Below are positions 1-7,459 of a stretch of DNA of 13,800 bases, piece after piece. A program made the position numbers and the translations under genes. Each line of letters begins with the position of its first letter. Positions within the stretch are counted from its first letter, which is position 1. The DNA comes from a virus. A model generated the notes under the pieces. That model had not been told where the DNA came from and did not search any database. It was given only the letters and a program-made list of their open reading frames with translations. The stretch lies in UHGV virus genome UHGV-0225830. One strand, 5' to 3'.

Positions 1-326
1 GCGGTGGCGGCGGTGGCGGCGGTAACAGGGGTAGACTAATATTTGGTGGTGGCGGTGGTCGCCCATTCGGTGCTGGTGGGTCTTCCTCTCATATGAGTTC
101 CGGTGCAACCGCTGGTACTATTTCCGCTCCTGGTAAAGGATCTGTTGGTGAGGGGTCTCTTAGTGCATATACAGGCGGTTCGGGTGGTAATGTTGGTGCT
201 GCTGGAGGAAGATGTAATACTCAAGGTAACGGTACAGAATATAACGGCGGAGCAGCTGGTAAAGCTGTTACTGGTAATGCGCCAAGATGGGACGCAGTAG
301 GTGCAATATACGGTTCACGTGTTTAA
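1..326 (+). CDS. C-terminal part of a glycine-rich tail-fibre/adhesin-like protein (5' end lies outside the window)
   Basis: Frame 3 is open from the window edge to TAA at 324-326. Translation GGGGGGGNRGRLIFGGGGGRPFGAGG...GGSGGNVGAAGG...NGGAAGKAVTGNAPRWDAVGAIYGSRV has at least six short Gly-rich blocks separated by short loops; DNA shows GGTGGCGGC tandem units at 1-25. Resemblance to the glycine-rich motifs of T-even gp38-type adhesins is from memory, not from a search. Confidence 0.5.
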   Translation, partial: GGGGGGGNRGRLIFGGGGGRPFGAGGSSSHMSSGATAGTISAPGKGSVGEGSLSAYTGGSGGNVGAAGGRCNTQGNGTEYNGGAAGKAVTGNAPRWDAVGAIYGSRV

Positions 327-342
327 TTAAAAAAGAGGGTAG

Positions 343-2071: not shown

Positions 2072-2077
2072 TTTTTA

Positions 2078-2117
2078 GGTAGTAGGGGCTTAGCCCCTAC
2101 TACCTTTTTTATTTTTT
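2078..2117 (+). terminator. Rho-independent terminator
   Basis: Perfect 12-bp stem GGTAGTAGGGGC (2078-2089) / GCCCCTACTACC (2093-2104), loop TTA, followed by TTTTTTATTTTTT (2105-2117); sits 7 nt after the stop of the 1451-2071 gene. Confidence 0.8.
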
Positions 2118-2162
2118 CTCAGATATATATTACCTAGGGGAGAGTGAAATTTACGTTCACTC
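2117..2162 (+). promoter_or_regulatory. Copy 1 of a repeated promoter-like element plus 5'-leader hairpin
   Basis: 20-nt TCAGATATATATTACCTAGG (2119-2138) is identical to 5653-5672; then GAGAGT conserved; then a 7-bp hairpin GAGTGAA (2142-2148) / TTCACTC (2156-2162). ATG of the next gene (2191) is 53 nt after the 20-mer. Confidence 0.5.
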
Positions 2163-2190
2163 CATTAGTTATAGCCTAAAGGAGGATTAG

Positions 2191-3042
2191 ATGTATCACC
2201 CGTATTATCTCCCGCACATTCTAGCAAATAGGGACCCCGGTTATTACTACGAACAAACAAAGGGATCTTTTAATCGACTTTACATTCGTGAATTTAATAC
2301 CGACGAAATGACTGATGACCAGTATCTGGAGTATCTAAAAGACCTTTACGGTTTTTCAAAATCGAATAAAGGTGACTTTGGACGTTCCGCAGTCATTAGG
2401 GTTGGTGAATATCGTCATTTGGCTAAGCCTGTTACTTACCCTATTATTACACGCGCTTATACATCGGATAGGCAATATATTGCTGAACTAAAATTTCCTT
2501 TACGGATAGACGGGCCCCAAATTAGCGCTATAGAAGTAGAGATTCAACCAATTGCTGAAGACTATATTGAAGACTACTTCAAGAAAGCTAAAGACGTACT
2601 CGACGAGGGTTTAAGTTACTCCGAAGAAGGAACGATTTGTCTTCTCTCGTTACTCACGAAGACTTACGTCACAGCAAATTTCCGTATCTCCGATTCCAGT
2701 AACTACAATACACTTACCCCCTCTAAGACAAAACCTGTTTATTGGGACGATCGGCTAGTCGACAGACAACGCTGGCTTACTATCTTAGATAGAGTAAAAT
2801 TCGAACCCCCTAAACACACCGAAGACGATTTTATTTTATTGCACAACTTCGAACCAATTTATATTCCAACGCATTTTGATCAAGCCTTACGTCATCGGTT
2901 GAAGTATGTGTTGGAATTACGGTACGGAAAGATAAACGGACTAACCTGTTCCGGTGAATTGGGTGAAGAAGAACGCGAGAAGATAAAAATCGTGTTTGAT
3001 AAGTTGGTTGAAGATTACATTAAGAAGGAAGGGCAATTATGA
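2191..3042 (+). CDS. hypothetical protein (283 aa)
   Basis: ATG 2191 preceded by AAAGGAGG (2178-2185); stop overlaps the next start (ATGA at 3039-3042); acidic, no recognised motif. Confidence 0.75.
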   Translation: MYHPYYLPHILANRDPGYYYEQTKGSFNRLYIREFNTDEMTDDQYLEYLKDLYGFSKSNKGDFGRSAVIRVGEYRHLAKPVTYPIITRAYTSDRQYIAELKFPLRIDGPQISAIEVEIQPIAEDYIEDYFKKAKDVLDEGLSYSEEGTICLLSLLTKTYVTANFRISDSSNYNTLTPSKTKPVYWDDRLVDRQRWLTILDRVKFEPPKHTEDDFILLHNFEPIYIPTHFDQALRHRLKYVLELRYGKINGLTCSGELGEEEREKIKIVFDKLVEDYIKKEGQL

Positions 3043-3482
3043 AACCAAATACTACTAACGGCATTATGCTACTTTGTGATTCTGAAACGTTAGCAAACCG
3101 TATTCGTGGTTTGATGCAAGTACGTTGGCAGCAAAAGGTTCTCGTCGACTATGCTGCCCCGTTTGTTCACATTACCTGGTTGCCAGAAGCTAGTGATTTC
3201 AAAGAACGTATAACCACGAGAAGAATTAAAGAATGGTTATCGGCAATCATTAATAAACAGATTACCGTTATCAATTTCCAACTTTTCGGTACCGCTGAAG
3301 AACATGAAATCTTGAAACAGTGTTTAAGAGACTTGGGTCTTTCCTCTTCTGTTCGTGGTAGCTGCTATACGGCTTACTTTATCGGTTCGCTTGAACTGTT
3401 TAAGAATACGCTAATGCTTCAGCTAAAAGACGACTACAAACTTTTAGATAAAATCGATTTCGAATTCCCAGGCATGATTTAA
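3039..3482 (+). CDS. hypothetical protein (147 aa)
   Basis: ATG 3039 overlaps the upstream stop; SD-like GGAAGGG upstream; no recognised domain (a single H-x-T-x at residue 44 only, see rejected). Confidence 0.7.
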   Translation: MKPNTTNGIMLLCDSETLANRIRGLMQVRWQQKVLVDYAAPFVHITWLPEASDFKERITTRRIKEWLSAIINKQITVINFQLFGTAEEHEILKQCLRDLGLSSSVRGSCYTAYFIGSLELFKNTLMLQLKDDYKLLDKIDFEFPGMI

Positions 3483-3528
3483 GGAATCATAGCTTAATCA
3501 CCCCACCATTTACCTAAAGGAGCATTAA

Positions 3529-4044
3529 ATGTCAGTAAATATTAACATGAATCTTTATACTAAACGTGAACGTCAGATTCTGGCGAATCAACCTGGTGTT
3601 ACGACTATCGACGGTAAACCTATTGACCGTTTAAAAGTTATCGTTGCGCGAAATTGTCATGAACACGATTGGGACATTACCTACTTCCGTTGTTGTTCGG
3701 TCGCAAATGCGCTTACTCAACTCTCTAACTACCACTCAGGACCGCTATTAAAAGACTGGGTTTGGTTAGTGCCAAGAACACCCACAGCAATTGAGTATCC
3801 CTCTGGACTAGTTTATATTCGACCTGTCGCTTATCCAGAGCGTCTGAAAGAGTATCTTGAAGTTATCTGGAACCGTCCTCGTAAAGAGCTGGTGACGATT
3901 ATTAATTTACTGCAGCAGATCGAAATCCCCGGCGTTTCGAATTTGAAACTCACGTCTCGCGATATTAACCAGGCTTACTGGGAACTGGAGTGGACAGAAC
4001 CGAAATTCGAAAACACTAACCGTATTTTCTTGCACCGGGGGTAA
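3529..4044 (+). CDS. hypothetical protein (171 aa)
   Basis: ATG 3529 preceded by the extended SD ATTTACCTAAAGGAG (3508-3522), identical to 8641-8655. Confidence 0.75.
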   Translation: MSVNINMNLYTKRERQILANQPGVTTIDGKPIDRLKVIVARNCHEHDWDITYFRCCSVANALTQLSNYHSGPLLKDWVWLVPRTPTAIEYPSGLVYIRPVAYPERLKEYLEVIWNRPRKELVTIINLLQQIEIPGVSNLKLTSRDINQAYWELEWTEPKFENTNRIFLHRG

Positions 4045-4046
4045 AA

Positions 4047-4328
4047 ATGTTAGATTGGTTGTTGGGTTTAATTAACTCACGTCAACAGGAGCTTTATAAA
4101 GAAAACACGCGATTACGGCAGGAGCTTAGTAACAATCGTCAGACCAAACGACAATTAATTCGAATGGTAAAACAACAGGCGCGTTGTATACGTGATATCG
4201 ATTATCAGTATCACCGTCTGAATACCTTAGACCCAACAACAAAAGCCCTCGGTGGGACAATCGGACACGCACGTAAAGTCAGTCACGATGCGTTAGTTCG
4301 ATTAGATACAATAGAAGAGAAACTGTGA
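4047..4328 (+). CDS. hypothetical protein (93 aa), predicted coiled-coil N-terminal half
   Basis: ATG 4047 lies 2 nt after the upstream stop; heptad-like charged/hydrophobic pattern (LYKENTRLRQELSNNRQTKRQLIRMVKQQ). Confidence 0.65.
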   Translation: MLDWLLGLINSRQQELYKENTRLRQELSNNRQTKRQLIRMVKQQARCIRDIDYQYHRLNTLDPTTKALGGTIGHARKVSHDALVRLDTIEEKL

Positions 4329-4333
4329 TTAGC

Positions 4334-4358
4334 TCTCCCTCGGGAACACCGAGGGAGA
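4334..4358 (+). promoter_or_regulatory. Strong intercistronic RNA hairpin overlapping a Shine-Dalgarno sequence
   Basis: Perfect 10-bp stem TCTCCCTCGG (4334-4343) / CCGAGGGAGA (4349-4358), loop GAACA; no clean T-tract follows; the right arm contains GAGGGA, a candidate SD for the downstream gene. Confidence 0.55.
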
Positions 4359-4371
4359 TAAGGTGTTTTAC

Positions 4372-4761
4372 ATGATACGTTTAGTTTACTTAAAAAGGCG
4401 TTTGTCATTAAAAGCCCAACTGTTTGTTAACGAGAAAGTTAAAAACTGGCTGTGCGGTAAAAGGGTACAATATGTCGTTAAAGAAGGCGACTGGTATACG
4501 GAGGTTGTGACTTCCCCTAACGGTGAACTTATAAACGTTACTATTCGTGACGTTATGGTTAAGGTTGGTAGGGGAGGTGGTCGGTTGTTTGAATCGGAAA
4601 CTATAAGAGTCGCTGCTAAACAATTGAAAGATGGTCGAGTTATATTCAATGTTACCGCCCAGAAATACTACGACAATTTATTCGAGTGCCAACGAGCAAT
4701 GGACAGAATGACCCGTGAGATGCGAAGAATGCACATTACGGAGATCACAATAGGTGTTTAA
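4372..4761 (+). CDS. hypothetical protein (129 aa from ATG 4372; 132 aa if GTG 4363 is used)
   Basis: ORF 4363-4761; ATG 4372 is preceded by AGGTG (4361-4365); GTG 4363 is preceded by GAGGGA, which lies inside the hairpin. Confidence 0.65.
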   Translation: MIRLVYLKRRLSLKAQLFVNEKVKNWLCGKRVQYVVKEGDWYTEVVTSPNGELINVTIRDVMVKVGRGGGRLFESETIRVAAKQLKDGRVIFNVTAQKYYDNLFECQRAMDRMTREMRRMHITEITIGV

Positions 4762-5072
4762 TGATGGAAAATAAAATCGCGAACACATCGGCACCTGAGA
4801 ACATCGTCAATTATATTCTCAGAGGCGGGTTATTAGAAGACAACAAAGAAACGTGCGATAAACTCGTTTCTCAACTACTGCCTATTCGTTCAGAATACTG
4901 CGAAATCGTTATCTTAGGTTCCGAGTATTGTGTACGCTCTTACTGCCGACGTTTCGAAGCCCTACGTGTACCTCGTACGTTAGGTGGTGTGATCTTACTG
5001 ATCTCATCTTTTCAAGACGCCCATGTGCGTGTGGCGACCTGGATTGCCAGAGGAGGTAACAGTGGTTTTTAA
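4761..5072 (+). CDS. hypothetical protein (103 aa)
   Basis: ATG 4761 immediately follows the upstream TAA (TAATGATGG); AGGTG at 4752-4756. Confidence 0.65.
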   Translation: MMENKIANTSAPENIVNYILRGGLLEDNKETCDKLVSQLLPIRSEYCEIVILGSEYCVRSYCRRFEALRVPRTLGGVILLISSFQDAHVRVATWIARGGNSGF

Positions 5073-5370
5073 ATTGCTAGGTTTCGGAAAATGCAAAGAG
5101 TGCGCAAAGCACGAAGAATTTATCAAGCTATTAGAAGAAACAGTTGAAACACAACAAGAACTCATTTCTGAATACCGTGCGAAAACTGGTTCAGTAGAAT
5201 ATCTGACCATCCTTGTTTGTGCTATTGCTGAGTTGGGTTGTGAGGGGGAATTGCCTAAAGAGGAGATATTAAAACTATTAAAAGAAAAAACGTCGTTTTA
5301 CCGTAAAGATATTGAAGCGTGTAAACGTGAGGTTAAAAGAGCTAACTGGGAGGTTATCAATGAAGCGTGA
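5062..5370 (+). CDS. hypothetical protein (102 aa from GTG 5062; ORF track start ATG 5023 lacks an SD)
   Basis: GAGGAGG (5050-5056) sits 5 nt before GTG 5062; overlaps the upstream gene by 11 nt; paired Cys motifs (GKCKEC, ELGCEGE). Confidence 0.6.
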   Translation: MVFKLLGFGKCKECAKHEEFIKLLEETVETQQELISEYRAKTGSVEYLTILVCAIAELGCEGELPKEEILKLLKEKTSFYRKDIEACKREVKRANWEVINEA

Positions 5371-5641
5371 AACTATTGTATTTTGTCAAAACGGTGATGT
5401 AAAACAATACCGGGGCAAGAAGTTAATTCGTACGTTAGATTATCGCGAAGCAAAACGTTTCGTTGAAGAGTGTGCGTGGTTAATGCATTACGAAGGGAAC
5501 TATCGCGCCATCTTAGAAGCACCGCGTTTAGAACGTGCAGTTGCGCAGATGGCAATAGGTAATCCTAAGAACTGTTACCTGGCCCGTAAGCCCAAATACC
5601 TACAGCGTGTCTCGCTAGGCAGTTTTATTGCGGGTTTTTAA
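5360..5641 (+). CDS. hypothetical protein (93 aa from ATG 5360)
   Basis: ATG 5360 preceded by GGGAGG (5348-5353); overlaps the upstream stop (5368-5370) by 11 nt; the track start at 5312 has no SD. Confidence 0.65.
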   Translation: MKRETIVFCQNGDVKQYRGKKLIRTLDYREAKRFVEECAWLMHYEGNYRAILEAPRLERAVAQMAIGNPKNCYLARKPKYLQRVSLGSFIAGF

Positions 5642-5650
5642 TAAAAATAT

Positions 5651-5693
5651 TTTCAGATATATATTACCTAGGTGAGAGTTCAGTTACTCTCAC
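5651..5693 (+). promoter_or_regulatory. Copy 2 of the repeated promoter-like element plus 5'-leader hairpin
   Basis: TCAGATATATATTACCTAGG (5653-5672), then TGAGAGT, then an 8-bp hairpin GTGAGAGT (5672-5679) / ACTCTCAC (5686-5693); ATG 5723 is 51 nt after the 20-mer. Confidence 0.5.
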
Positions 5694-5722
5694 TTAACGA
5701 AACCATTTTAGGAGAATATACC

Positions 5723-6217
5723 ATGAACTTCACTAGACTTGATTACACTAACGAATTAGTCGACAAAGAAAAATACAAATTCACGATTGACTTGGGTTAC
5801 GGGCTGTGGGACGTAGAAAAAGATATTCTACACAAAGAATTCCGTGGGCAATTCGGTGCATTATTCTGCGCAGGATTCCGTAGAAATTCTATTGATATCG
5901 GTTATGGTGCAACACCGTATAGCGACGAAGAAATGTTTAAGCTGATAACACAGATTATCGGAACTCGTGTGGCTAAACGTTTTAATTATTCTAACGAACT
6001 TGTTTCGAAAGAACATTACAAGTTCACTGTTAGACTACCTGTTCCTCTCTTTAAAGAAGATAAGAATAGACTCTATAAAGCCCTACAAACCGAATTCGGT
6101 AAAACGCTCAAAGTAGGGTTCCGCAGTCGTAGTATCGATATCGGAATTAGCGTAGACGTGTGCAGTGACGATGACCTTTACGAATTAGTTTCGGAAGTTA
6201 TCGGAAAACACCTCTAA
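5723..6217 (+). CDS. hypothetical protein (164 aa) made of two tandem repeats of about 75 aa
   Basis: ATG 5723 preceded by AGGAG (5710-5714); the track start GTG 5672 lies inside the leader hairpin and is unlikely. The two halves align (YTNELVDKEKYKF...GFRRNSIDIG vs YSNELVSKEHYKF...GFRSRSIDIG). Confidence 0.75.
   Translation: MNFTRLDYTNELVDKEKYKFTIDLGYGLWDVEKDILHKEFRGQFGALFCAGFRRNSIDIGYGATPYSDEEMFKLITQIIGTRVAKRFNYSNELVSKEHYKFTVRLPVPLFKEDKNRLYKALQTEFGKTLKVGFRSRSIDIGISVDVCSDDDLYELVSEVIGKHL
5741..6205 (+). repeat. Intragenic tandem duplication (two units of about 74 codons, roughly 45% amino-acid identity by eye)
   Basis: Residues 7-80 and 88-161 of the 5723-6217 protein align without gaps. 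Confidence 0.7.
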
Positions 6218-6261
6218 GCGTAAATTAACGCTTCAGCTTGTAAAACCAAAAGGAAAATAAA

Positions 6262-7038
6262 ATGAAAACTATCGAGTTTAAGAATAGCAGTCTTTGGGCA
6301 TACACGCACATCATTACGAGTTTCCTGAAAAACGTTACTCCACATCTTGCTTATCAGATTTGTGGGAATGAGCTCACTATCGGTGGTTTTAACGAGGATG
6401 AATTAAAACGAGCAAAAGAGTTCATTGACGATGTTCTTCGTGGTGAAGCAACGTGTTTAGTTGCAAGTTACGTTGCTAAAGACAAAGGAAGATTAAACGT
6501 CATGGCAATTTTCAGATCGTTCTCCGAAAAAGTATACGAAGTTGAGAAGATTAGTCATACCGTTTATATTGTTTACTTTAAACGTTCGGCGGAGAAAAAC
6601 GCTGATAAAATTCTGGAGTATTTCGACTGTAACCCGGGGGAAGGTATGGATGTCTATACGCTCGGTTACGATGGGGTACCTCACCGGAATAACCTTATTC
6701 GCATTGACGAACCTTTTTCTGTCAATGACGATTCCTCGCCTATAGAGATGGTTCTGGTACACAAAGATCGTTTCGCGCATTACGACTCTGATACTATTCA
6801 ACGTGTCCTGAACAACGTTAATGTACAGTTTTCACAAACCGAGCACTTAGTACGTGCATGTCTTAGGTCTAATGGCACAACATCATTTTTCTTCGAACGT
6901 CAAACCGTTTGGCAAACTTATCTGGCTCTGATGGAAGAACTTGATAGGATCGAGCCAGTTCAGGTTGGTGCAAATTGCTTATATTGGATAAAAACAAAAG
7001 GGTTCATGAATGAAAACGCTCAATTCAGATTTGCGTGA
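6262..7038 (+). CDS. hypothetical protein (258 aa)
   Basis: ATG 6262 preceded by AAAGGA (6249-6254); overlaps the next gene by 29 nt; no recognised motif. Confidence 0.75.
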   Translation: MKTIEFKNSSLWAYTHIITSFLKNVTPHLAYQICGNELTIGGFNEDELKRAKEFIDDVLRGEATCLVASYVAKDKGRLNVMAIFRSFSEKVYEVEKISHTVYIVYFKRSAEKNADKILEYFDCNPGEGMDVYTLGYDGVPHRNNLIRIDEPFSVNDDSSPIEMVLVHKDRFAHYDSDTIQRVLNNVNVQFSQTEHLVRACLRSNGTTSFFFERQTVWQTYLALMEELDRIEPVQVGANCLYWIKTKGFMNENAQFRFA

Positions 7039-7438
7039 TTACATCCGTCAGTACCCAGCCAGTATTCCTGTACTGGCTTCGCTTACGCTTTCAGGTACTG
7101 ACGTTAACATTTTAACGGTGGAGCAGTTCCACGAGATAATAAAAACCGCCTATAACTCCATTACCGCAACGTCAGTACGTAAACGTTGCGATTATCCAGA
7201 CGGGGATTTCGGCACCGAGATGTTTACAGATTATGCGGTTGCGTTTCTGTTAGGGCGACACTGCCTCGATAAACTTAACACTGCTGTAGAAGGGGAAACA
7301 GTGACGGAAATTGTCAATGCTTGGCAGCAACGTATTCTGAACGACCCTTACTGCCGCCAAGCGTTGAAACGAATGTCCACAACGGCGATTACAAACGACC
7401 AGCGTGCTTTAGAGTTCTTTAAGCACAATTACAGCTAA
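7010..7438 (+). CDS. family B protein (142 aa), paralog of 8663-9094
   Basis: ATG 7010 preceded by AAAAGGG (6996-7002). Aligns with the 8663 protein: LN.D.R.YIR..P, YP.G..G..M, DP, MS.T in the same order. Confidence 0.75.
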   Translation: MKTLNSDLRDYIRQYPASIPVLASLTLSGTDVNILTVEQFHEIIKTAYNSITATSVRKRCDYPDGDFGTEMFTDYAVAFLLGRHCLDKLNTAVEGETVTEIVNAWQQRILNDPYCRQALKRMSTTAITNDQRALEFFKHNYS

Positions 7439-7459
7439 TTTACCAAAAGGAAAAATGAC

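What the first reader, a model, noticed from the sequence alone, without database searches (positions are those of the whole stretch)
2117..5693. Exactly repeated 20-nt element followed by hairpins conserved in structure but not sequence, at fixed distance from two start codons
TCAGATATATATTACCTAGG occurs at 2119-2138 and 5653-5672, with 26 of 27 positions identical once the downstream N-GAGAGT is included. In both copies a hairpin follows at the same offset but with different arms (GAGTGAA/TTCACTC versus GTGAGAGT/ACTCTCAC), and the gene start lies 53 and 51 nt downstream. Copy 1 directly abuts the T-tract of a terminator. Exact conservation of a 20-mer in non-coding DNA plus a structurally conserved leader hairpin is what a phage-specific promoter with a stabilising or processing 5' stem-loop would look like. 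The G-rich segment after CCTA resembles initiation regions of single-subunit-RNAP promoters, though the sequence matches no consensus I know (T7, SP6, T4 late, sigma70).
Basis: seen in the sequence. Interest (0 to 1): 0.7.

Follow-up and report, generated by a model that had tools for sequence, protein, structure and literature searches.

The report
Jumbo-phage early promoter with leader hairpin
The repeated 20-mer is the core of the early promoter that SPN3US-like giant phages most likely use with the RNA polymerase they carry in the virion, and it comes with a structure-conserved hairpin at the very start of the transcript; the promoter type is already known, and the hairpin is a modest addition that I did not find described.

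Summary
TCAGATATATATTACCTAGG occurs exactly twice (2119-2138, 5653-5672, + strand; none expected by chance), each copy followed by a hairpin and a start codon 53 or 51 nt later.

The window is a fragment of an SPN3US-like (phiKZ-related) jumbo phage. The same 20-mer recurs 2-6 times per genome in Salmonella and Erwinia jumbo phages. It is always intergenic, always co-oriented with the genes, and often sits just after a terminator. It aligns with published early-promoter consensi of phiKZ (TATATTAC), 201phi2-1, OBP and N1M2. These promoters are read by the virion-packaged multisubunit RNA polymerase, with mapped starts about 10 bp after the AT-rich core.

The hairpin is also real across the family. 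27 of 43 non-redundant copies have an anchored stem of 7 bp or more (shuffles: mean 1.2, maximum 5). The stem shows compensatory changes and a sense-strand G·U bias, so it is selected at the RNA level. It begins 0-3 nt from the predicted 5' end. Its most likely role is a 5'-terminal stabilising stem-loop, but this is inferred.

Verdict: a new member of a known promoter class, not a single-subunit-RNAP promoter. The covarying leader hairpin was not found in the literature I could read. No transcript data exist for this phage group.

The parts
2077..2117 (+). Intrinsic terminator (13-bp GC-rich stem at 2077-2105, T-tract at 2106-2117) that ends the upstream virion/tail-fibre gene block. The T-tract overlaps the upstream part of promoter copy 1.
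   Evidence: Terminator scan; sequence. Many family members also sit directly after a terminator.
2106..2145 (+). Promoter copy 1: the conserved block from about -34 to +6. The exact 20-mer core is 2119-2138, the TATATTAC core is 2126-2133, and the predicted start is G2140 (plus or minus 2).
   Evidence: repeat; family conservation profile from -34 to +6; match to phiKZ, 201phi2-1, OBP and N1M2 consensi.
2142..2162 (+). Leader hairpin 1: 7-bp stem GAGUGAA/UUCACUC with a 7-nt loop, starting 2-3 nt from the predicted 5' end.
   Evidence: dG -7.6 kcal/mol, z -3.6; family statistics.
2163..2193 (+). Rest of leader 1, with the Shine-Dalgarno AGGAGG (2180-2185) and the ATG (2191-2193).
   Evidence: Sequence. 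Leader length fits the family (46-65 nt from motif end to start codon).
2191..5641 (+). Transcription unit 1: ten tightly packed small ORFs (2191-3042, 3039-3482, 3529-4044, 4047-4328, 4363-4761, 4761-5072, 5023-5370, 5312-5641 and others), all ORFans.
   Evidence: ORFs; no Pfam hit above the curated cut-off (one sub-threshold DUF3958 match); the only PHROG hit is to a family of unknown function; some homologues in SPN3US gp127 and gp131.
5640..5679 (+). Promoter copy 2: the conserved block from -34 to +6. The exact 20-mer core is 5653-5672, the TATATTAC core is 5660-5667, and the predicted start is G5674 (plus or minus 2). It begins at the stop codon of ORF 5312-5641, and there is no terminator upstream.
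5672..5693 (+). Leader hairpin 2: 8-bp stem GUGAGAGU/ACUCUCAC with a 6-nt loop. 6 bp remain (5674-5691) if the RNA starts at 5674, so the stem begins at the 5'-terminal nucleotide.
   Evidence: dG -12.2 kcal/mol, z -4.5; the covariance model finds window 5659-5700.
5694..5725 (+). Rest of leader 2, with the Shine-Dalgarno AGGAG (5710-5714) and the ATG (5723-5725).
   Evidence: Sequence.
5723..9128 (+). Transcription unit 2: ORFs 5723-6217, 6262-7038, 7010-7438, 7460-8593 and 8663-9094, all ORFans. There is a terminator-like hairpin at 8611-8630 and a strong terminator at 9101-9128.

Best explanation
Each copy is an early promoter of an SPN3US-like (phiKZ-related, Chimalliviridae) jumbo phage. 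A conserved block of about 40 bp (A/T-rich element at -34 to -22, then TTTCAGATATATATTACCTAGG, then the initially transcribed GAGAGU) is recognised by the multisubunit RNA polymerase that is packaged in the virion and injected with the DNA. Transcription is predicted to start at the G of G-T/G-G-AGA, at 2140 and 5674 (plus or minus 2).

The first 20-26 nt of the RNA fold into a 6-10-bp stem-loop. Its 5' arm is the conserved initially transcribed sequence. Its 3' arm and loop are free to vary as long as pairing is kept. A leader of about 50 nt then brings the ribosome-binding site of the first gene of an operon of small early ORFan genes.

The most likely job of the stem-loop is to bury the 5' end of the early mRNA and protect it from 5'-end-dependent decay by RppH and RNase E in the enterobacterial host.

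What is shown:
- The repeat, its family, its orientation and its genomic context.
- The sequence match to a promoter class that has been validated experimentally in other phages.
- Selection for the sense-strand hairpin.

What is inferred:
- Recognition by vRNAP and the exact start site (by homology; sub-confidence about 0.85).
- The stabilising role of the hairpin (sub-confidence about 0.45).
For: 1. Identity of the genome. The window ORFs are syntenic with SPN3US from 105.8 to 138 kb (25-78% amino-acid identity). They are 97-100% identical to a 220.8-kb IMG/VR contig. That contig encodes a 76%-identical homologue of SPN3US gp241, which is the essential, head-associated vRNAP beta-N subunit (PMC5105663).

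2. Family of the motif. There are 24 exact copies of the 20-mer in contigs of 150-245 kb, and 56 copies with 2 or fewer mismatches (43 non-redundant). Each genome has 2-6 copies, all on one strand. SPN3US has 13 copies with 5 or fewer mismatches on the + strand (plus one weak minus-strand match), each just upstream of a gene on the same strand. In 41 of 43 copies a Shine-Dalgarno sequence plus start codon lies 18-72 nt downstream, with a median near 52.

3. Match to known early promoters. These are phiKZ TATATTAC, 201phi2-1 TTAWTAVAA..TTTRARR.BTATATTACDWHDGTG, and OBP/N1M2 TTTCARRYAKATATTATYWAAGTG (PMC7058600). phiKZ itself reads TTTaaacagTATATTACtaacTTGA, against TTTCAGATATATATTACCTAGGTGA here. 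In phiKZ and 201phi2-1 these motifs lie about 10 bp upstream of mapped transcription start sites and are attributed to vRNAP (PMC8244752, PMC11512511, PMC7598289).

4. Hairpin.
- Anchored stems of 7 bp or more occur in 27 of 43 copies, against a shuffle mean of 1.2 and maximum of 5.
- In the covariance-model alignment 93.4% of cells are paired against 75.8% in shuffles (0 of 500 reach the observed value). The covariation score is 0.331 against 0.124 (0 of 500), and 0.01-0.06 in slid registers. 5 of 8 pairs have changes on both sides.
- G·T wobbles outnumber A·C 49 to 17, so the structure is favoured on the sense strand.
- Stems start 0-4 nt after CCTAGG, which is within 0-3 nt of the predicted start.

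5. No Rfam family and no tRNA is present. The downstream genes are ORFans, as is typical of jumbo-phage early genes.
Against: - There is no transcript mapping, rifampicin test or in-vitro transcription for any SPN3US-like phage, so vRNAP recognition and the start site rest on homology to Pseudomonas phages.
- I could not read the primary phiKZ paper or any TSS table, so the start is only placed to within about 2 nt.
- About a third of family members have only a weak or imperfect hairpin (13 of 43 lack a perfect 5-bp anchored stem).
- The divergent promoter class in SPN3US (TSAGATAGATATTATCT) and phiKZ's own early promoters mostly lack the hairpin. The hairpin therefore cannot be essential for vRNAP initiation in general.
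- The covariance-model alignment is fitted to the structure, which inflates the pairing figures somewhat.
- The sequences are phylogenetically related, so shuffle-based significance is optimistic.
- The window alone (13.8 kb) does not contain the polymerase genes.
Confidence: 0.78

Rival explanations
1. The hairpin is not a stabiliser. It is instead a regulatory or mechanistic RNA element of the same vRNAP promoter: a binding site for a phage or host protein (translational control, shut-off of early mRNAs, or export from the early-infection vesicle), a pause or attenuation signal, or an aid to promoter escape for a sigma-less polymerase.
For: - The hairpin is coupled to one promoter sub-class only (canonical copies versus TSAGATAGATATTATCT copies).
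- The 5' arm GAGAGU is conserved in sequence, not just in structure.
- Many family members have 2-4 U after the stem (consensus ttt at +20 to +22).
- In leader 1 the 3'-arm tail CUCC can alternatively pair with the Shine-Dalgarno GGAG.
- phiKZ 5' UTRs show conditional premature termination (PMC10914365).
Against: - Loop sequence and length (3-8 nt) and the distal stem vary freely, which argues against a sequence-specific protein site.
- The two window copies have no U-tract after the stem.
- The stems are AT-rich and weak compared with real terminators in the same window.
- phiKZ early promoters work without such a hairpin.
Confidence: 0.25
2. It is a host sigma-70 promoter (-10 hexamer TATATT) used by the bacterial RNA polymerase, and the extra conservation is incidental.
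For: TATATT matches 5 of 6 positions of TATAAT. The scan calls copy 2 a sigma-70-like site (TTAATA, 16 nt, TATATT).
Against: - The promoter scan finds no more sites than shuffles do (27 found against 25.3 expected).
- Copy 1 has no -35 hexamer, and the family consensus has none at 16-18 bp spacing. The conserved A-34, T-32 and A-29 would give a 14-bp spacer, and there is no TG extension.
- Near-invariant positions outside any sigma-70 element (TCAGA, ACCTAGG, GAGAG) are left unexplained.
- The homologous phiKZ promoters drive host-RNAP-independent transcription (PMC7598289).
Confidence: 0.06
3. It is an N4-type promoter in which the inverted repeat acts as an extruded DNA hairpin that the polymerase recognises, with the start site downstream of the hairpin.
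For: - The structure is conserved while the stem sequence varies, as in N4 early promoters, where non-conserved stem bases only need to pair (PMC4496689).
- The polymerase is also virion-borne.
Against: - N4 hairpins are centred at -11, have a GC-rich heptamer and a 3-nt loop, and function on the template strand with a single-subunit vRNAP.
- Here the hairpin lies downstream of the conserved core, which in relatives sits at about -10.
- Loops range from 3 to 8 nt.
- 49 G·T wobbles on the sense strand become A·C mismatches on the template strand.
- Relatives (phiKZ, class-B sites) lack the repeat.
Confidence: 0.04
4. The repeats are primarily recombination cassettes (like T4-type PeSL promoter/terminator modules) or ends of a mobile element, rather than being selected for expression.
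For: - Terminator-promoter composites recur.
- There are gene-cassette indels right next to them. L016 lacks window 2176-3006, and L011 has about 390 extra bp at 4329-4362.
- PeSLs are defined as composite terminator/early-promoter motifs that mediate indels in T4-like phages (PMC4122927).
Against: - The indel junctions lie downstream of the hairpin or at another intergenic hairpin, not within the 20-mer.
- There are no inverted copies, no target-site duplications and no transposase.
- The strict co-orientation with genes and the fixed distance to the ribosome-binding site fit expression signals.
- Recombination at repeated promoters would be a by-product and is not exclusive of promoter function.
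- The genome is not T4-type.
Confidence: 0.05
5. It is a promoter for a T7/SP6-like single-subunit phage RNA polymerase.
For: Copy 1 reads TAGGGGAGAG, which superficially resembles the T7 initiation region TATAGGGAGA (my own knowledge). T7 promoters also span -17 to +6.
Against: - The family consensus is TAGGTGAGAG. The G at the variable position is seen only in the copy-1 orthologue group and one other family member.
- The upstream part has no similarity to single-subunit RNAP promoters.
- The related complete genome SPN3US is annotated with multisubunit beta/beta' genes only.
- The motif is homologous to promoters of multisubunit vRNAPs.
Confidence: 0.02

Closest known systems
Early (virion-RNAP) promoters of phiKZ-related jumbo phages (phiKZ, 201phi2-1, OBP, N1M2, EL)
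   Same: - An AT-rich core of about 10 nt containing (T)ATATTAC/T, centred near -10.
- An upstream TTT-C/R-A-R-R element and an A/T-rich element near -30.
- A G/T-T-G-A start region.
- Intergenic position at the head of operons of small hypothetical genes.
- Several to dozens of copies per genome, co-oriented with the genes.
- A genome that encodes a virion multisubunit RNAP.

   Different: - The SPN3US-group version is far more rigid: 20 nt are identical between paralogous sites and across Salmonella and Erwinia phages.
- In its canonical sub-class it is coupled to a covarying 5'-terminal stem-loop. I did not see this consistently in phiKZ (about 2 of 7 sites), and it is not mentioned in the phiKZ and 201phi2-1 transcriptome papers.
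- Leaders are longer, about 50 nt against 31-40 nt in phiKZ.
- There is no experimental mapping for this group.
5'-terminal stabilising stem-loops of bacterial and phage mRNAs (E. coli ompA leader; the T7 phi10 leader downstream of a phage-RNAP promoter). This comparison rests on my own knowledge, not on a tool result.
   Same: - A short stem-loop within 0-3 nt of the 5' end.
- The sequence is free to vary as long as pairing is kept.
- The structure is placed upstream of, and separate from, the ribosome-binding site.
- In T7 the stem is likewise built from the conserved initially transcribed sequence of a phage-polymerase promoter.
   Different: - Function has not been tested here.
- The stems are AT-rich and modest in stability (-6 to -14 kcal/mol).
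- The polymerase is multisubunit and virion-borne.
- The transcripts are presumably made in or near the early-infection vesicle rather than in free cytoplasm (PMC13282480).
PeSL (promoter-early stem-loop) cassettes of T4-like phages
   Same: - Repeated composite terminator/early-promoter modules between variable small genes.
- Gene-cassette indels next to them.

   Different: - PeSLs are sigma-70-type early promoters of T4-like myoviruses, and their stem-loop is the terminator.
- Here the genome is Chimalliviridae-like, the promoter is of the vRNAP type, and the covarying stem-loop lies downstream of the promoter in the leader.
N4 virion-RNAP hairpin promoters
   Same: A virion-injected polymerase, and an inverted repeat whose sequence may vary if pairing is kept.
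   Different: - In N4 the hairpin is a DNA element centred at -11 on the template strand, with a 3-nt loop and a GC-rich core, read by a single-subunit enzyme.
- Here the hairpin is downstream of the conserved core and is biased to the sense strand.

Membership tests
phiKZ-type jumbo-phage early (vRNAP) promoter | A highly conserved AT-rich core of about 10 nt containing TATATTAC / ATATTAY, centred near -10 | tested here: met
   TATATTAC lies at 2126-2133 and 5660-5667. The core is invariant in all 43 family members, though these were selected on ATATTA.
phiKZ-type jumbo-phage early (vRNAP) promoter | Flanking elements of the published consensi: TTT-C/R-A-R-R upstream, an A/T-rich element near -30 (TTAWTAVAA), and GTG(A) at the start | tested here: met
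   Copy 2 reads TTAATAAAAATATTTTCAGATATATATTACCTAGGTGAGA, which fits 201phi2-1 and OBP/N1M2. The unbiased flanks A-34, T-32, A-29, T-23 and T-1 G+1 A+2 G+3 are conserved. Copy 1 has the terminator T-tract in place of the -30 element.
phiKZ-type jumbo-phage early (vRNAP) promoter | Multiple intergenic copies per genome, co-oriented with the genes, heading operons of small genes of unknown function | tested here: met
   2-6 canonical copies per fetched genome, all on one strand. SPN3US has 13 + strand copies with 5 or fewer mismatches upstream of + strand genes. The window operons consist of ORFans.
phiKZ-type jumbo-phage early (vRNAP) promoter | The genome encodes a virion-packaged multisubunit RNAP | tested here: inconclusive
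   This is met for the sister contig, which is 97-100% identical to the window in protein sequence and carries a gp241 homologue at 76% over 1400 aa. It is also met for SPN3US. The 13.8-kb window itself contains no RNAP gene.
phiKZ-type jumbo-phage early (vRNAP) promoter | Primary transcript 5' ends about 10 nt downstream of the core, made early and independently of host RNAP and of protein synthesis | not testable with these tools
   I found no transcriptome or 5'-end data for SPN3US-like phages. The start is predicted by homology only.
5'-terminal stabilising mRNA stem-loop | A stem-loop that forms in the RNA (sense strand) and is maintained by compensatory change | tested here: met
   27 of 43 copies have stems of 7 bp or more, against a shuffle mean of 1.2. 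The covariation score is 0.331 against 0.124 (0 of 500 shuffles reach it). G·T wobbles number 49 against 17 A·C.
5'-terminal stabilising mRNA stem-loop | At most about 2-4 unpaired nucleotides at the 5' end | tested here: inconclusive
   Stems start 0-4 nt after CCTAGG, which is 0-3 nt from the predicted start. The start itself is inferred, not mapped.
5'-terminal stabilising mRNA stem-loop | Lengthens mRNA half-life, dependent on RNase E / RppH | not testable with these tools
   This needs experiments. An indirect test, asking whether SPN3US lacks phiKZ's degradosome inhibitor Dip, was uninformative because the positive controls also failed.
Host sigma-70 promoter | A -35 hexamer 16-18 bp upstream of a -10 hexamer (or a TG-extended -10) | tested here: not met
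   The -10-like TATATT is present, but there is no conserved -35 at the proper spacing and no TG extension. Copy 1 has none at all.
T4-type PeSL cassette | A composite terminator / sigma-70 early promoter in the hyperplastic regions of a T4-like genome | tested here: not met
   The genome is SPN3US-like, not T4-like. The promoter is of the vRNAP type, and the covarying stem-loop is in the leader, not in the terminator.
N4 vRNAP hairpin promoter | A template-strand DNA hairpin centred at -11 with a GC-rich heptamer and a 3-nt loop | tested here: not met
   The hairpin is downstream of the conserved core. Loops are 3-8 nt and stems are AT-rich. The wobble bias disfavours the template strand.

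The most novel reading that the evidence does not exclude
In the SPN3US clade the 5'-terminal stem-loop is an integral, obligatory part of a distinct 'immediate-early' promoter class. It would act during transcription or just after it. It might help a sigma-less virion polymerase clear the promoter. It might instead mark the RNA for export from the early-infection vesicle, for preferential translation, or for later shut-off. The hairpin-less TSAGATAGATATTATCT sites, which sit upstream of the non-virion RNAP genes, would then form a second early class. That would be a two-tier early programme encoded in leader RNA structure, which has not been described for nucleus-forming phages.
Probability: 0.15. 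Interest if true: 0.65.

Novelty: new member of a known kind. Interest (0 to 1): 0.35.

Why it matters
SPN3US is the enterobacterial genetic model for nucleus-forming jumbo phages, yet I found no published promoter map or transcriptome for it.

- A precise consensus of about 40 bp (-34 to +6) and a list of sites give immediate targets for TSS mapping.
- The same consensus can be used to annotate early operons in dozens of Salmonella, Erwinia and E. coli jumbo phages.
- It also gives a compact, host-independent expression cassette for engineering these phages. A phiKZ consensus early promoter is already used in this way (PMC12676376).

The covarying 5' hairpin is a testable hypothesis about how early mRNAs made by an injected polymerase survive in the host. 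It may be a solution that phiKZ does not use. None of this overturns current understanding.

Tried and rejected
1. T4-type PeSL idea. It was prompted by the 93%-identical Krischvirus gp38 fragment at window 1-328. I dropped it once protein synteny showed an SPN3US-like genome.

2. T4 late (TATAAATA) and T7/SP6 consensi: no match by inspection.

3. Sigma-70: the scan is at background level and the family has no -35 hexamer.

4. Rfam and tRNA scans of the window found nothing.

5. MAFFT alignment of 43 leaders came out ungapped and put the 3' arms out of register. I replaced it with a covariance model built on the commonest geometry.

6. Exact TSS offset. The primary phiKZ paper, the AR9-genome paper (which predicts early motifs for all RNAP-encoding jumbo phages) and the OBP paper are not held. 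No supplementary TSS tables are held either. The start is therefore placed only from statements of 'about 10 bp upstream of the TSS'.

7. A literature search for the SPN3US-type motif string found no paper. I cannot exclude that it is shown as a logo in Lavysh et al. 2016.

8. Dip (phiKZ gp37) homologue search in SPN3US by tblastn was uninformative, because PhuZ and ChmA controls were also not detected at this divergence.

9. Only the first 50 kb of phiKZ was examined for hairpins (7 promoters). The conclusion that phiKZ lacks the hairpin is provisional.

10. RNase III site: rejected because the stems are only 6-10 bp.

11. Intrinsic attenuator: rejected for the window copies because there is no U-tract.

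Full report
**Observation.** The 20-mer TCAGATATATATTACCTAGG occurs exactly at 2119-2138 and 5653-5672 on the + strand. No other match exists with up to 3 mismatches, and none of 200 dinucleotide shuffles gives any match. Identity extends to 28 of 30 positions (2116-2145 and 5650-5679) and then stops, so this is a short non-coding repeat and not part of a duplicated segment. Each copy is followed by a hairpin:
- Copy 1: GAGTGAA (2142-2148) with TTCACTC (2156-2162), dG -7.6 kcal/mol, z -3.6.
- Copy 2: GTGAGAGT (5672-5679) with ACTCTCAC (5686-5693), dG -12.2 kcal/mol, z -4.5.

Each copy then has a good Shine-Dalgarno sequence and an ATG at 2191 or 5723. Copy 1 abuts a strong terminator (2077-2105 plus T-tract). 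The only inaccuracy in the finding is 'same offset': the two stems begin about 4 nt apart relative to the 20-mer.

**What genome this is.** The first 328 bases are 93% identical to the gp38 adhesin of RB49-like T4-type phages. That first suggested a T4-type 'PeSL' cassette. The rest of the window has no close match in the phage collection. Its proteins are syntenic with Salmonella jumbo phage SPN3US from gp122 to gp159 (25-78% identity). They are 97-100% identical to a 220.8-kb IMG/VR contig. That contig encodes a 76%-identical homologue of SPN3US gp241 over 1400 residues. gp241 is the essential, head-associated beta-N subunit of the virion RNA polymerase (PMC5105663). The window is therefore a piece of an SPN3US-like, phiKZ-related jumbo phage that carries its own multisubunit virion RNAP.

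**The element is a family.**
- The exact 20-mer occurs 24 times in contigs of 150-245 kb.
- With 2 or fewer mismatches I collected 56 copies, of which 43 are non-redundant, from SPN3US, Erwinia phages and metagenomic relatives.
- Every genome with several copies has them all on one strand.
- In the fully annotated SPN3US genome there are 13 copies with 5 or fewer mismatches on the + strand (plus one weak minus-strand match), each just upstream of a + strand gene.
- Many copies sit directly after a terminator.
- In 41 of 43 copies a Shine-Dalgarno sequence plus start codon follows at 18-72 nt, mostly 46-65 nt.
- Outside the positions used for selection, conservation extends upstream to A-34, T-32, A-29 and T-23, and downstream through T-1 G+1 A+2 G+3 A+4 g+5 T+6.
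- BLAST shows the motif in Salmonella, Erwinia, Cronobacter and E. coli jumbo phages. It is unannotated in their records.

**What it matches.** The published early-promoter consensi of phiKZ-related phages are:
- phiKZ: TATATTAC
- 201phi2-1: TTAWTAVAA_HYWTTTRARR_BTATATTACDWHDGTG
- OBP: ...TTTYARRYAKATATTATYWWADTG
- N1M2: ...TTTCARRYAKATATTATYWAAGTGWA
(PMC7058600).

Copy 2 reads TTAATAAAAATATTTTCAGATATATATTACCTAGGTGAGA, which fits these from the -30 element to the GTG. phiKZ's own sites read TTTaaacagTATATTACtaacTTGA. In phiKZ and 201phi2-1 these motifs lie about 10 bp upstream of experimentally mapped transcription starts. They drive early transcription that is independent of host RNAP, and they are attributed to the injected virion RNAP (PMC7598289, PMC8244752, PMC11512511, PMC13282480). 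The review states that such a motif can be found bioinformatically in every RNAP-encoding jumbo phage. By homology, transcription should start at the last G of G-T/G-G, at 2140 and 5674 (plus or minus 2).

**The hairpin.**
- In 43 non-redundant copies, a perfect stem of 7 bp or more that begins 0-4 nt after CCTAGG occurs in 27. Mononucleotide shuffles give a mean of 1.2 and a maximum of 5. With stems of 5 bp or more the count is 30 against 8.6, and random SPN3US 40-mers give 22%.
- The stems differ in sequence: GAGUGAA, GAGAUUAC, GAGCGUUA, GAACUUGC, UGAUAGA, GAGGAU and others.
- A covariance model built on the commonest geometry aligned 41 sites. 93.4% of cells are paired against 75.8% in shuffles. 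The covariation score is 0.331 against 0.124 (0 of 500 shuffles reach it), and 0.01-0.06 for slid registers. 5 of 8 pairs show changes on both sides. The caveat is that this alignment is fitted to the model.
- G·T wobbles outnumber A·C 49 to 17. The helix is therefore favoured on the sense strand, which means RNA and not a symmetric DNA cruciform or a template-strand hairpin.
- The 5' arm is the conserved initially transcribed sequence GAGAGU. The 3' arm and the loop vary.
- The hairpin is largely absent from the divergent SPN3US sites (TSAGATAGATATTATCT). It is also absent from most of the seven phiKZ early promoters I examined.
- The phiKZ and 201phi2-1 transcriptome papers do not mention it.

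**Mechanism.** The best-supported reading runs as follows. The injected virion RNAP recognises the block from about -34 to +6 and starts at G+1. The first 20-26 nt of the RNA then fold into a stem-loop that leaves 0-3 unpaired 5' nucleotides. A leader of about 50 nt delivers the ribosome to the first of a string of small ORFan early genes. A 5'-terminal stem-loop of this kind is the classical way to block 5'-end-dependent decay, as in the ompA and T7 phi10 leaders (my own knowledge). I rate this role at about 0.45. I rate a regulatory or co-transcriptional role at about 0.25.

In the window, unit 1 (2191-5641) runs straight into promoter 2 with no terminator between them. Unit 2 ends at the terminators at 8611-8630 and 9101-9128.

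**Rivals.**
- Sigma-70: only a -10-like hexamer is present. No -35 is conserved at the proper spacing, and the scan is at background level.
- N4-type DNA hairpin promoter: the position, loop, strand and polymerase type are all wrong.
- PeSL-like recombination cassette or mobile element: the genome is not T4-type. Indel junctions lie beside the 20-mer, not in it. Recombination at repeated promoters may still occur as a by-product.
- Single-subunit RNAP promoter: the G-rich start is seen only in the copy-1 orthologue group and one other family member, and the related genome has only multisubunit RNAP genes.

**Novelty and verdict.** The promoter belongs to a known, experimentally grounded class, and this is a new member of it. 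It is not annotated in the public records I saw, and it is not printed in any paper I could search. A logo in Lavysh et al. 2016, which I could not read, may already show it. The tightly coupled, covarying 5'-terminal hairpin is, as far as I could check, undescribed for jumbo-phage early transcripts, but it is a familiar device in other systems. Interest is moderate to low (0.35). The finding is useful for annotation, TSS mapping and phage engineering, but it is not surprising to a specialist.

Noticed in passing
window 1-326 (+, frame 3) and 343-846: The left edge encodes the glycine-rich C-terminus of a gp38-type adhesin that is 93% identical in nucleotide sequence to RB49-like (Krischvirus, T4-type) phages. 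A second adhesin-like ORF follows (phrog_1121). Both lie inside an SPN3US-like jumbo-phage genome. This looks like a recent transfer of a receptor-binding module between unrelated phage families, and it hints at an E. coli host.
   Followed up: partly
window 2176-3006; L016 about 2571-2575: A related contig (IMGVR_UViG_3300045988_078609) has the same promoter and hairpin but lacks exactly the 283-aa ORF 2191-3042 with its ribosome-binding site. There the leader runs into the homologue of ORF 3039-3482. This is a gene-cassette indel about 13 nt after the hairpin.
   Followed up: partly
window 4329-4362; L011 about 5750-6172: The sister contig L011 carries about 390 extra bp, probably one more small gene, at the position of the window's intergenic GC-rich hairpin CTCTCCCTCGGGAACACCGAGGGAGA. 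This accounts for the different spacing of the two promoters (3908 against 3534 bp).
   Followed up: no
SPN3US (L023-L026) 15612, 23808, 72682, 109891, 184042, 191600: A second, hairpin-less variant of the motif, TSAGATAGATATTATCT, has arms AGATA/TATCT that are self-complementary. Two of these sites lie upstream of gp22-23 and gp30-35, which include the annotated non-virion RNAP beta/beta' genes. This may be a second early-promoter class. No such site occurs in the window.
   Followed up: partly
leaders of 16 of 43 family members (e.g. SPN3US 56292, 94237, 223275): A conserved CGACYAT/TGACYAT motif lies between the hairpin and the Shine-Dalgarno sequence (…AATCGACTATCAAGGAG…). It is absent from both window copies, and its function is unknown.
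   Followed up: no
window 2175-2194, 3508-3532, 8641-8665: The ribosome-binding-site context (ATTTA)CCTAAAGGAG-N-ATTA-A/G-ATG is repeated almost exactly in front of three genes (repeat families D3 and D9).
   Followed up: no
window 2160-2185: In the full-length fold of leader 1, the tail of the hairpin's 3' arm (CUCC, 2160-2163) can instead pair with the Shine-Dalgarno GGAG. This gives two mutually exclusive conformations. It was not seen for leader 2.
   Followed up: no
window 5723-6217, 7460-8593, 7010-7438 vs 8663-9094: There are internal and tandem duplications among the early ORFans. ORF 5723-6217 consists of two repeats of about 80 aa (…NELVxKExYKFT…SIDIG…). ORF 7460-8593 contains repeated IGKEDAD…MR segments (repeat D4). 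ORFs 7010-7438 and 8663-9094 are paralogues.
   Followed up: no
window 12615-12642: A bidirectional terminator (12-bp stem with T-runs on both sides) lies between the convergent genes 12016-12531 (+) and 12647-13138 (-).
   Followed up: no
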